NCBI RefSeq assembly: GCF_009914755.1
Contig: NC_060943.1
Reading direction: 5' to 3' (one strand)
Length of the DNA: 64,000 bases
Source of the DNA: the human T2T-CHM13v2.0 reference genome, Homo sapiens
A program made the translations under genes and the position numbers. Shown in pieces: positions 8,140 to 54,006 of the stretch. Under the pieces are notes generated by a model. That model ran no database searches, was not told where the DNA came from, and was given only the letters and a program-made list of their open reading frames with translations. The stretch's first letter is position 1; each line of letters begins with the position of its first letter.

Positions 8140-8167
8140 ATTTACATAGCGCCACGCATTCTGGGAA
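8140..8167 (-). promoter_or_regulatory. tRNA-Sec distal activator element: SPH/Staf (ZNF143) motif plus variant octamer
   Basis: TTCCCAGAATGCGTGGCGC (8149-8167) next to ATGTAAAT (8140-8147), at about -205 to -230. Confidence 0.85.
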
Positions 8168-14569: not shown

Positions 14570-14956
14570 TAAATCCAAGCTCAGGCCTCCCCTGGGCCCC
14601 ATGCAAAGCCCCGGCGTTGGGGCTAGTAGCATCCAGGAGACACCAACGCCTCACGGCGCCTCCAGCGGCGGGTCCGGAAGTGCAGGGTGGTGCCCTGTCT
14701 AGGCAACTACAAGTCCCAGCAGGCCCCGCGGCCAAGGTGCCTCGTCTTTCCTGGACTCCTGGAGCAGAGCCTCTTGGGAAATGTAGTCCTGGTCGCTCAG
14801 GTAATTAGCGCAGAGTCCCTAGTGGGAGTGATCCTGACACCCACCGGGAAAAGGCTCGGGCCGAGGAGGGGGGTGGGTGGGAACGGACAAGAGATGGAGG
14901 GGGCCAGAGGGCTGCGGGGGCTGGGGGCAGGCGTCCTGCGGGCAGAGACACCGTTC

Positions 14957-51570: not shown

Positions 51571-52093
<523 letters not shown>

Positions 52094-53151: not shown

Positions 53152-53370
53152 GTGAGTAGAGTGCCCAGTCCAGCCACAGGAACTACAAATCCCAGAATAC
53201 TCTGTTCTCACATGTTAAGCACCCTTATAGGAGAGTCAGGGCGAATGGTGCTGGGGATTGTAGTCTCCTGAGATGGGGCTTTGATCAGGGGCTGATGAGG
53301 TTGGGGGAGTAAGATTGATTGGGGGGCAGTCTTTTGTCCCTGATCTTTCTGATTTCTTGCCTATCCCCAG

Positions 53371-53416
53371 AATCTGTGCGGAGACCCTGGGAGAAGAACA
53401 GCACAACCTTGCCAAG
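53371..53416 (+). CDS. VASP: VASP exon 10
   Basis: SVRRPWEKNSTTLP. Confidence 0.95.
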
Positions 53417-53664
53417 GTAGGCCATCGGTCCTGGGGCCCTTGGGGAGGTAAAGGCGGGCAGATCGCTTGAGCCCAGGAGGTCAAGACCAGCCTGGGCAAC
53501 ATGGCGACACCCCATCTCTACAAAAATTAGCCAGGCGTGGTAGCACTTACCTGTGGTCCCAGCTACTCAGGAGGCTGAGGTGGGAGGATTACTTGAGCCC
53601 AGGAAGTTGAGGCCTCAGCGAGCCATCATCATGCCTGCACTCCAGCCTGAGAAATAGAATGTGA

Positions 53665-54006
<342 letters not shown>

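What the first reader, a model, noticed from the sequence alone, without database searches (positions are those of the whole stretch)
53181..53264. Second convergent ZNF143-type motif pair with the same geometry as the RTN2 3'UTR pair
Seen in the 219-nt VASP intron 9: AACTACAAATCCCAGAATAC on plus (core 53182-53194) and ACTACAATCCCCA on minus (53252-53264). The span is 83 bp versus 82 bp at 14706-14787, yet the spacers are unrelated, so this is not a simple duplication. Both pairs lie far from known promoters. Inference: a recurring fixed-spacing module (paired ZNF143 or THAP11/HCFC1 platform, or the termini of a decayed miniature inverted-repeat element). With the tRNA-Sec SPH site this gives three putative ZNF143 anchors in 45 kb. 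This is the best candidate here for an undescribed system.
Basis: partly seen in the sequence, partly recalled or inferred. Interest (0 to 1): 0.8.

Follow-up and report, generated by a model that had tools for sequence, protein, structure and literature searches.

The report
Fixed-spacing paired ZNF143/THAP11 sites, 19q-clustered
The two facing ZNF143/THAP11-type motifs in VASP intron 9 are real and belong to a recurrent about 82-bp two-site module that, away from promoters, is found almost only in introns of chromosome 19q genes, close to exons.

Summary
An exact ACTACAAATCCCA lies at 53182-53194 (+) and a one-mismatch ACTACAATCCCCA at 53252-53264 (-). The outer span is 83 bp, against 82 bp for the RTN2 3'UTR pair.

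Genome-wide, 13 of 35 exact convergent pairs have spans of 80-84 bp (spacer 54-58). With a relaxed pattern the figure is 20 of 50. At span 82 with up to 2 mismatches there are 24 loci, against 5 at span 77.

Each arm is a full SBS2-type composite site, and the roughly 30-bp middle is unrelated between loci. I found no target-site duplications, no tail of decayed copies and no MLT1J homology. The module is therefore best read as a constrained two-site ZNF143/THAP11-HCFC1 platform, not MITE termini.

An opposite-strand THAP11-ZNF143 preferred distance of about 61 bp was already reported in passing (TF-COMB, 2022). Two features appear undescribed in my searches:
- 12 of 20 and 18 of 24 such pairs lie on chr19, nearly all on 19q13.
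- 20 of 26 intronic ones lie within 90 bp of an exon.

The VASP copy is a weak member because its ZNF143 tails are degenerate. Occupancy and cross-species conservation could not be tested here. The "loop anchor" idea is weakened by recent ZNF143 depletion studies.

The parts
53180..53207 (+). Left arm of the VASP intron-9 module. It consists of an RR flank, the exact ACTACAAATCCCA core (53182-53194) and a partly degenerate SBS tail.
   Evidence: Tail score 3.4 bits, against a background mean of -7.6 and a 95th percentile of 1.3. The 28-nt arm scores 26.7 bits.
53208..53238 (.). Spacer between the two arms. It shows no similarity to the spacers of other modules.
   Evidence: all-against-all blastn found only arm matches for VASP; information content is near zero beyond arm position 27.
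53239..53266 (-). Right arm of the VASP module. The core ACTACAATCCCCA (53252-53264) has one mismatch, and the SBS tail is weak.
   Evidence: Tail score -1.9 bits. The 28-nt arm scores 18.5 bits, the weakest arm among the four pairs found in 264 kb.
14704..14731 (+). Left arm of the RTN2 3'UTR module. The core is exact (14706-14718), it has the best SBS tail of all arms scored, and its CpGs are retained.
   Evidence: Tail score 13.4 bits. Arm score 33.6 bits.
14762..14789 (-). Right arm of the RTN2 3'UTR module, with an exact core at 14775-14787.
   Evidence: Tail score 6.6 bits. Arm score 27.9 bits.
8150..8167 (-). Single SBS1-type site upstream of tRNA-Sec. It is not part of a pair and has no ACTACA box.
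   Evidence: One search gave an exact match, the only one in the window. One search shows the sequence.

Best explanation
The VASP intron-9 pair is one copy, a weak one, of a recurrent two-site module. Two complete SBS2-type composite sites face each other. Each has an RR flank, ACTACA, two free bases, TCCCA and the ZNF143 tail. The ACTACA boxes sit at the outside and the outer span is 80-84 bp, which leaves about 30 bp of free sequence in the middle.

Shown here:
- The geometry is a sharp genome-wide preference.
- The arms are independent instances of the factor motif, not copies of one another.
- The core positions are kept while the free positions and the spacers are randomised.

Inferred: the module is a platform on which two ZNF143/THAP11-HCFC1 assemblies sit at a set distance. 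THAP proteins dimerise through a coiled coil. The platform would behave as a promoter-like, possibly bidirectional, nucleosome-excluding element. At RAB29, BUB3, CNPY2, FASTKD1, ZSWIM8 and DERL1 it sits at annotated promoters. On 19q13 it sits in CpG-poor introns next to exons, where its role is unknown. The VASP copy keeps the THAP11 half of both arms but has degenerate ZNF143 tails, so it may be weakly bound or decaying.
For: Spacing:
- 13 of 35 exact convergent pairs have spans of 80-84 bp (P=1.2e-12).
- With the relaxed pattern, 20 of 50 pairs fall in 80-84 and none at 78, 79, 85 or 86 (P=4.5e-17).
- Without chr19 the figure is still 8 of 33 (P=1e-5).
- At span 82 with up to 2 mismatches there are 24 loci and 0 in the reversed-pattern control. 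At span 77 there are 5 loci and 1 in the control.

Arms:
- Positions that were not selected by the search carry information: -1 and 0 (the RR flank) and 14-25 (the SBS tail).
- 42 of 52 arm tails exceed the background 95th percentile.

Constraint:
- Counts at 0, 1 and 2 mismatches are 5, 8 and 11 at span 82. This fits about 0.07 change per core site, not the 0.3 expected of an old neutral repeat.
- The NN positions differ at 21 of 30 sites, by my hand count on the 15 chr19 pairs printed. In one search, identity at NN within a pair is no higher than between pairs.
- A weight-matrix scan of 264 kb found four pairs, all with spans of 81-84 and summed scores of at least 45 bits. The next best pair scored 14.6 bits.

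Regulatory context:
- 11 of 32 chr19 modules lie within 100 bp of a RefSeq functional element, against 4.4 expected (P=0.002).
- A 'silent region' entry lies 37 bp from the VASP pair.
- The BCAT2 intron-2 module is 57 bp upstream of an annotated antisense lncRNA TSS.

Literature:
- The SBS2 and THAP11 site definitions come from PMC3627581 (passages read).
- An SBS alone gives bidirectional promoter activity (PMC3082894, passages read).
- Opposite-orientation THAP11-ZNF143 motif pairs have a preferred distance of about 61 bp and overlap ChIP peaks more often (PMC9358416, section 4.5 read).
- THAP proteins dimerise through a coiled coil (PMC13631171, passages read).
Against:
- Published ZNF143 peaks are overwhelmingly at promoters (PMC11687419, PMC3627581). 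The 19q modules lie in CpG-poor, probably methylated gene bodies (CpG observed/expected 0.14-0.56).
- The VASP right arm has a core mismatch at an informative position and a tail score of -1.9 bits.
- The constraint argument rests on one genome. No other species could be examined.
- A helical periodicity that would support direct cooperativity is not significant (Rayleigh p about 0.1).
- Nothing in this model explains the restriction to 19q or the exon proximity.
Confidence: 0.55

Rival explanations
1. The modules are relics of a short palindromic mobile element, or of some other locally spreading sequence on proto-19q. Its ends carried THAP-type binding sites. The fixed length would be inherited, and the arms may have been co-opted later.
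For: - The modules are palindromes of fixed length.
- They are strongly clustered by region: 12 of 20 and 18 of 24 lie on chr19.
- A few full-length alignments of 71-74% identity exist among CA11, MBOAT7, BRSK1 and NUCB1b.
- A short family that is densest on 19q already exists, the MSR1 minisatellite (PMC4725990, passages read).
- The THAP domain derives from a P-element transposase (recalled, not checked in any call).
Against: - There is no target-site duplication at any offset or length after allowing for multiple tests.
- Spacers and flanks are unrelated. By contrast, a true duplicate, the two PTPRH modules, still has an alignable spacer (compared by eye).
- Arms are no more alike within a pair than between pairs (NN p=0.87, tail p=0.058).
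- There is no tail of decayed copies.
- The same geometry occurs at unrelated promoters on other chromosomes.
Confidence: 0.17
2. The selected feature is a hairpin in the pre-mRNA, or a cruciform in DNA, placed near splice sites. On this reading the resemblance to the factor motif is secondary.
For: - All modules tested fold as long hairpins. Z-scores are -2.9 for both strands of VASP and -5.4 to -6.4 for CA11, BRSK1 and NUCB1b.
- 20 of 26 intronic modules lie within 90 bp of an exon.
- Complementarity of the tails within a pair is borderline (p=0.058).
Against: - The stem sequence itself is conserved between loci, which pairing alone does not require.
- The NN positions inside the stem are not complementary.
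- Modules are split evenly, 10 near 5' splice sites and 10 near 3' splice sites (counted by hand).
- Members at promoters lie upstream of the TSS.
- Rfam has no match on the module.
Confidence: 0.08
3. The pair is a chance neighbourhood of two motifs in GC-rich, motif-rich DNA.
For: The motif is locally dense. In 264 kb of 19q13 sequence there are 17 strong arms, and the right VASP arm is imperfect.
Against: - The expected number of such pairs is about 0.04 genome-wide for spacers of 40-70. I derived this by hand from the counts. The observed number is 21, with 0 in the control.
- The spacing distribution is sharply peaked, not flat.
- In 264 kb all four high-scoring pairs have spans of 81-84, against 0.25 expected if the distribution were flat.
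Confidence: 0.03

Closest known systems
SBS2 / M4 composite promoter motif bound by ZNF143 (Staf), THAP11 (Ronin) and HCFC1
   Same: Each arm has the RR flank, ACTACA, two free bases, TCCCA and the ZNF143 tail (definition from PMC3627581 and PMC3082894, passages read).
   Different: Most described sites are single and promoter-proximal (PMC5006282 says most M4 genes have one copy). Here two sites face each other at a set distance, and most copies are intronic on 19q.
THAP11-ZNF143 'preferred distance about 61 bp, opposite orientation' (TF-COMB, PMC9358416)
   Same: It is a fixed distance between opposite-strand motif instances, and such pairs overlap ChIP peaks more often. This is probably the same phenomenon, or the related divergent class (spans 76-81).
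   Different: It was reported as one example in a software paper, from HepG2 open chromatin. How its 61 bp maps onto my 82-bp outer span cannot be settled without the figure. The section I read has no anatomy, no chromosome distribution and no exon proximity.
MLT1J LTR copies carrying one SBS2 (PMC3627581, PMC3431495)
   Same: They are non-promoter SBS2 sites spread by a repeat. About 15 of the 20 ACTACATTTCCCA sites fetched from chr1 belong to one such family.
   Different: They carry a single motif with no facing partner, and their flanks align with each other. The 19q modules share none of that flank.
MSR1 minisatellite, densest on 19q (PMC4725990)
   Same: It is a short sequence family concentrated on chromosome 19q, often in promoters and introns.
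   Different: MSR1 consists of tandem 36-38-bp units. The modules are single palindromes. No such array lies in the window, and I held no MSR1 sequence to compare with.
Miniature inverted-repeat transposable elements
   Same: They are short, with inverted ends and a fixed length.
   Different: The modules show no target-site duplication, no shared interior and no decayed copies.

Membership tests
SBS2 composite site (THAP11 + ZNF143) | ACTACA, two free bases, then TCCCA | tested here: met
   The left arm is exact and the right arm has one mismatch.
SBS2 composite site (THAP11 + ZNF143) | An 18-bp ZNF143 tail follows the core | tested here: inconclusive
   The VASP tails score 3.4 and -1.9 bits, against a background 95th percentile of 1.3. 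The RTN2 tails score 13.4 and 6.6 bits.
SBS2 composite site (THAP11 + ZNF143) | Occupied by ZNF143, THAP11 and HCFC1 in cells | not testable with these tools
   No ChIP data are available here, and the supplementary peak lists are closed.
Convergent 80-84 bp paired module | Facing arms with an outer span of 80-84 bp | tested here: met
   The VASP span is 83 bp and the RTN2 span is 82 bp.
Convergent 80-84 bp paired module | 19q13 intronic, exon-proximal subclass | tested here: met
   The VASP module lies in intron 9, 29 bp from exon 9.
MITE / terminal-inverted-repeat element | Target-site duplication flanking the ends | tested here: not met
   26 elements were tested at offsets 0-6 and lengths 2-8. 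The best nominal P was 0.03.
MITE / terminal-inverted-repeat element | Copies share interior sequence and include many decayed copies | tested here: not met
MLT1J LTR | Homology to the LTR outside the motif | tested here: not met
   No direct BLAST was run between the two sets. The comparison was by eye, on printed flanks.
Known structured RNA (Rfam) | Match to a covariance model | tested here: not met
   No hit falls on 53180-53266 at E up to 1.
MSR1 minisatellite | Tandem units of 36-38 bp | tested here: not met
   TRF finds no array at either module.

The most novel reading that the evidence does not exclude
Chromosome 19q13 carries a domain-restricted system of several dozen paired THAP11/ZNF143 platforms. 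They are placed in introns 20-90 bp from exons of unrelated genes and are kept by selection. They would act on exon-adjacent chromatin, through nucleosome phasing, polymerase pausing or cryptic bidirectional initiation. They may descend from a THAP-bound, P-element-like miniature element that spread by local hopping before the arms were co-opted.
Probability: 0.12. Interest if true: 0.85.

Novelty: new variant of a known kind. Interest (0 to 1): 0.62.

Why it matters
The motif and its factors are well known, and a preferred opposite-strand distance has been noted once. If the arms prove to be bound and conserved, three things follow:
- The fixed 82-bp geometry would be a concrete rule of ZNF143/THAP11-HCFC1 assembly that altered spacing can test directly.
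- The 19q13 intronic, exon-flanking subclass would be a rare case of a chromosome-region-specific family of cis elements in human.
- That subclass would give about 30 defined sites at which to ask what these factors do away from promoters.

Tried and rejected
- **BLAST of one module (BRSK1) against the whole reference.** It found only itself, so all genome-wide work used patterns.
- **MLT1J origin.** Rejected: those copies have one motif and different flanks.
- **ZNF-gene-cluster promoters.** This was my first guess for the chr19 hits. Gene mapping rejected it.
- **Target-site duplications.** None found.
- **Helical periodicity of the minor span clusters** (54-61, 71-77, 91-93, 103-107). Not significant.
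- **Hairpin co-variation.** Not found.
- **Exon proximity as a by-product of later repeat insertions.** Rejected: it persists after masked repeats are removed (20 of 26 against 12.3 expected, P=1e-4).
- **Length of the neighbouring exon.** No pattern.
- **MSR1 arrays in the window.** None.
- **Literature.** Searches for a prior description of the pairs or of the 19q cluster returned only the TF-COMB remark.
- **Rows dropped before counting.** I removed 16 loci and 1 locus. They are near-identical copies of one dispersed repeat, which I take from recall to be the L1 5'UTR. I also left out the Alu-interrupted 173-bp DHDH pair. Two of the 24 loci and two of the 5 loci look like copies of dispersed repeats, but I left them in those counts.
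- **Hand counts.** The 5'/3' splice-site split and the 21-of-30 NN count were made by hand.

Full report
**1. The observation**

An exact ACTACAAATCCCA lies at 53182-53194 on the plus strand, and ACTACAATCCCCA lies at 53252-53264 on the minus strand. The minus-strand motif has one mismatch to ACTACANNTCCCA. The span is 83 bp, inside the 219-nt VASP intron 9.

The RTN2 3'UTR pair is exact on both arms, with a span of 82 bp. The window has 3 exact motifs against 0.01 expected, and 5 with up to one mismatch against 1.14 expected. Neither pair lies in a masked repeat of 100 bp or more. Shorter masks are not listed in the files I had.

**2.

The exact motif occurs 3847 times in the reference, against 1249 for the reversed-pattern control.

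Facing pairs, with the ACTACA boxes outside, were counted by spacer range:

| Spacer | Pairs | Control |
|---|---|---|
| 0-39 | 4 | 0 |
| 40-70 | 21 | 0 |
| 71-200 | 10 | 0 |

Thirteen of these 35 pairs have spans of 80-84 bp, which is a spacer of 54-58 (P=1.2e-12).

A relaxed pattern gave 15, 21 and 32 loci. I removed 17 near-identical copies of one dispersed repeat and one pair interrupted by an Alu piece. Of the remaining 50, 20 fall at 80-84 (2, 6, 6, 4 and 2 at each successive span) and none at 78, 79, 85 or 86 (P=4.5e-17).

At a fixed span of 82 with up to two mismatches there are 24 loci and 0 in the control. At span 77 there are 5 loci and 1 in the control.

The peak survives removal of chr19, at 8 of 33 (P=1e-5).

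Other arrangements behave differently:
- Back-to-back pairs number 12, with their own cluster at spans of 76-81 (6 of 12).
- Same-strand pairs show no single peak.

**3. Anatomy**

I took 52 arms from 26 pairs. Positions that the search did not select still carry information. These are the two purines before ACTACA and positions 14-25 after the core, which make up the ZNF143 tail. Forty-two of the 52 tails exceed the 95th percentile of random local sequence.

So each arm is a whole SBS2-type composite site as defined by Ngondo-Mbongo et al. (PMC3627581, passages read) and Anno et al. (PMC3082894, passages read). Beyond position 27 there is no shared sequence. All-against-all blastn finds arm matches and little else.

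Arms of one pair are no more alike than arms of different pairs (free NN positions p=0.87, tails p=0.058).

**4. Evidence for constraint and against a decayed repeat**

- At span 82, the counts at 0, 1 and 2 mismatches are 5, 8 and 11. This fits about 0.07 change per core site. An old neutral repeat at 0.3 would give ratios of about 1:9:42.
- A weight-matrix scan covered the 64-kb window plus a 200-kb sample of 19q13.33 taken without regard to where the known pairs lie. It found four pairs, all with spans of 81-84 and summed scores of at least 45 bits. The next best pair scored 14.6 bits.
- No target-site duplications were found.
- The abundant single ACTACATTTCCCA sites are mostly copies of one LTR family with alignable flanks and no facing partner. 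This matches the published MLT1J case (PMC3627581, PMC3431495). The modules are not that.
- The two PTPRH modules are a true local duplicate, and their spacers are still alignable (compared by eye). Unrelated spacers elsewhere therefore argue against recent copying.
- Rfam has no match on the module.
- The modules do fold as hairpins (z from -1.5 to -6.4), as any palindrome must, but there is no compensatory pattern.

**5. Where the modules are**

Outside chr19 the 80-84 bp pairs sit mostly at annotated promoters: RAB29, FASTKD1, BUB3, CNPY2, ZSWIM8 and DERL1. TBX6, WBP2 and RTEL1 join them in the span-82 set. NOS3 and CHRNB1 are intragenic.

Chr19 holds 12 of 20 relaxed-pattern pairs and 18 of 24 span-82 loci. 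Seventeen of those 18 lie on 19q between 38.4 and 58.3 Mb. For comparison, chr19 holds 0 of 12 back-to-back pairs and 9 of 51 same-strand rows (Fisher P=1.3e-4).

The host genes are unrelated: RTN2, VASP, GRIN2D, LMTK3, CA11, RASIP1, IZUMO1, BCAT2, TULP2, NUCB1, DHDH, FTL, GYS1, EMP3, TMEM143, APLP1, SHKBP1, CACNG8, MBOAT7, DNAAF3, PTPRH, BRSK1 and others. The surrounding DNA is CpG-poor, with observed/expected of 0.14-0.56 against 0.64-0.83 at five of the six promoter pairs scored (ZSWIM8: 0.40).

Of 26 intronic modules, 20 lie within 90 bp of an exon, against 11.0 expected for random placement in the same introns (P<1e-5). After masked repeats are removed the figure is still 20 against 12.3 (P=1e-4). 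Ten lie near 5' splice sites and ten near 3' splice sites (counted by hand).

Eleven of 32 chr19 modules lie within 100 bp of a RefSeq functional element, against 4.4 expected (P=0.002). The BCAT2 intron-2 module lies 57 bp upstream of an antisense lncRNA TSS.

I have no explanation for the 19q restriction or for the exon proximity. My searches found no description of either.

**6. The copies in this window**

- The RTN2 module is a strong member. Its tails score 13.4 and 6.6 bits, its CpGs are retained, and an ETS-like CCGGAAGTG lies 24 bp upstream.
- The VASP module is a weak member. It has a core mismatch at an informative position and tails of 3.4 and -1.9 bits. It still scores 26.7 and 18.5 bits over the whole arms. 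It lies 29 bp from exon 9 and 37 bp from a RefSeq 'silent region' entry.
- The tRNA-Sec site is an ordinary single SBS1 in its expected upstream place. It has nothing to do with the pairs.

**7. What is known**

The motif, its factors and its promoter role are established. A preferred opposite-orientation THAP11-ZNF143 distance of about 61 bp, with better ChIP overlap, was reported as an example in the TF-COMB paper (PMC9358416, section 4.5 read in full). Without the figure I cannot say whether it corresponds to the facing pairs or to the back-to-back pairs.

THAP proteins dimerise by a coiled coil and bind HCF-1 (PMC13631171, passages read). ZNF143 peaks have strongly positioned flanking nucleosomes (PMC3431495, passages read).

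The 'anchor' idea is weakened. Acute ZNF143 loss did not change looping, and the CTCF overlap came from antibody cross-reactivity (PMC11687419, passages read). A preprint with the same message, 10.1101/2024.03.08.583987, I saw only in the search listing.

MSR1 is a precedent for a short family densest on 19q (PMC4725990, passages read). It is tandem, and I could not compare its sequence.

**8. Mechanism**

Shown: the geometry, the full-site arms, their independence and the retention of the core.

Inferred: two ZNF143/THAP11-HCFC1 assemblies bind at a set distance and make a promoter-like, nucleosome-excluding platform.

Not shown: occupancy, conservation in other species, and any effect on VASP.

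**9. Caveats**

- Some regions of the reference are closed, so counts are lower bounds.
- Listings are capped, so the chr19 share of single motifs could not be measured.
- The 90-bp threshold for exon proximity was chosen after seeing the data. A threshold-free statistic on the first 17 modules gave P=0.04.
- All evolutionary inference rests on one genome.

Noticed in passing
genome-wide, e.g. G000 chr7:94474300-94474375 and chr11:16835902-16835980: Back-to-back (divergent) SBS2 pairs have their own cluster at spans of 76-81 bp (6 of 12). Most lie between annotated head-to-head genes such as VPS50/HEPACAM2 and SOX6/C11orf58.
   Followed up: partly
G000 chr11:64260902-64261406: A tandem array of at least six units. 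Each unit is an SBS2-like site followed by a CA dinucleotide run.
   Followed up: no
L001 (SHKBP1 intron 6) and L004 (RASIP1 intron 8); SHKBP1 has two modules 44 bp apart (73 and 80 bp). In both SHKBP1 and RASIP1 a third exact motif ends exactly 197 bp from the first.
   Followed up: partly
L013 (DHDH intron 6); The exact outer pair spans 173 bp and encloses a piece that looks like the 3' end of an Alu. A degenerate inner arm gives an 82-bp pair.
   Followed up: partly
G000 chr19:58291022-58291103 and 58291745-58291828: There are two modules in neighbouring PTPRH introns, and their spacers are still alignable by eye. The module was apparently duplicated along with its exon-intron unit.
   Followed up: no
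window 53406-53700: An Alu, shown by sub-threshold Rfam SRP, mir-1268 and mir-1285 hits and a masked repeat at 53449-53615. It carries the first exon and TSS of the predicted lncRNA LOC107985315.
   Followed up: no
window 14674-14682: An ETS-like CCGGAAGTG lies 24 bp upstream of the RTN2 3'UTR module, in DNA with CpG observed/expected of 0.52. This may be an unannotated promoter at the RTN2 3' end.
   Followed up: no
17 loci on many chromosomes: Near-identical dispersed copies carry a relaxed facing pair at spans of 90 and 85 bp. I take them from recall to be the L1 5'UTR. They were excluded from the histogram.
   Followed up: no
L019-L038 (chr1): About 15 of the 20 ACTACATTTCCCA sites belong to one LTR-like family with alignable flanks. 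A large share of the 3847 genome-wide motif matches is therefore repeat-borne.
   Followed up: partly
G000 acrocentric short arms, chr13, 14, 15, 21 and 22: Identical same-strand motif pairs with spans of 150-152 bp recur on five acrocentric chromosomes, presumably within shared duplications.
   Followed up: no
window 51626-51696: A tandem repeat of 36/18 bp within VASP exon 6, the proline-rich coding repeat.
   Followed up: no
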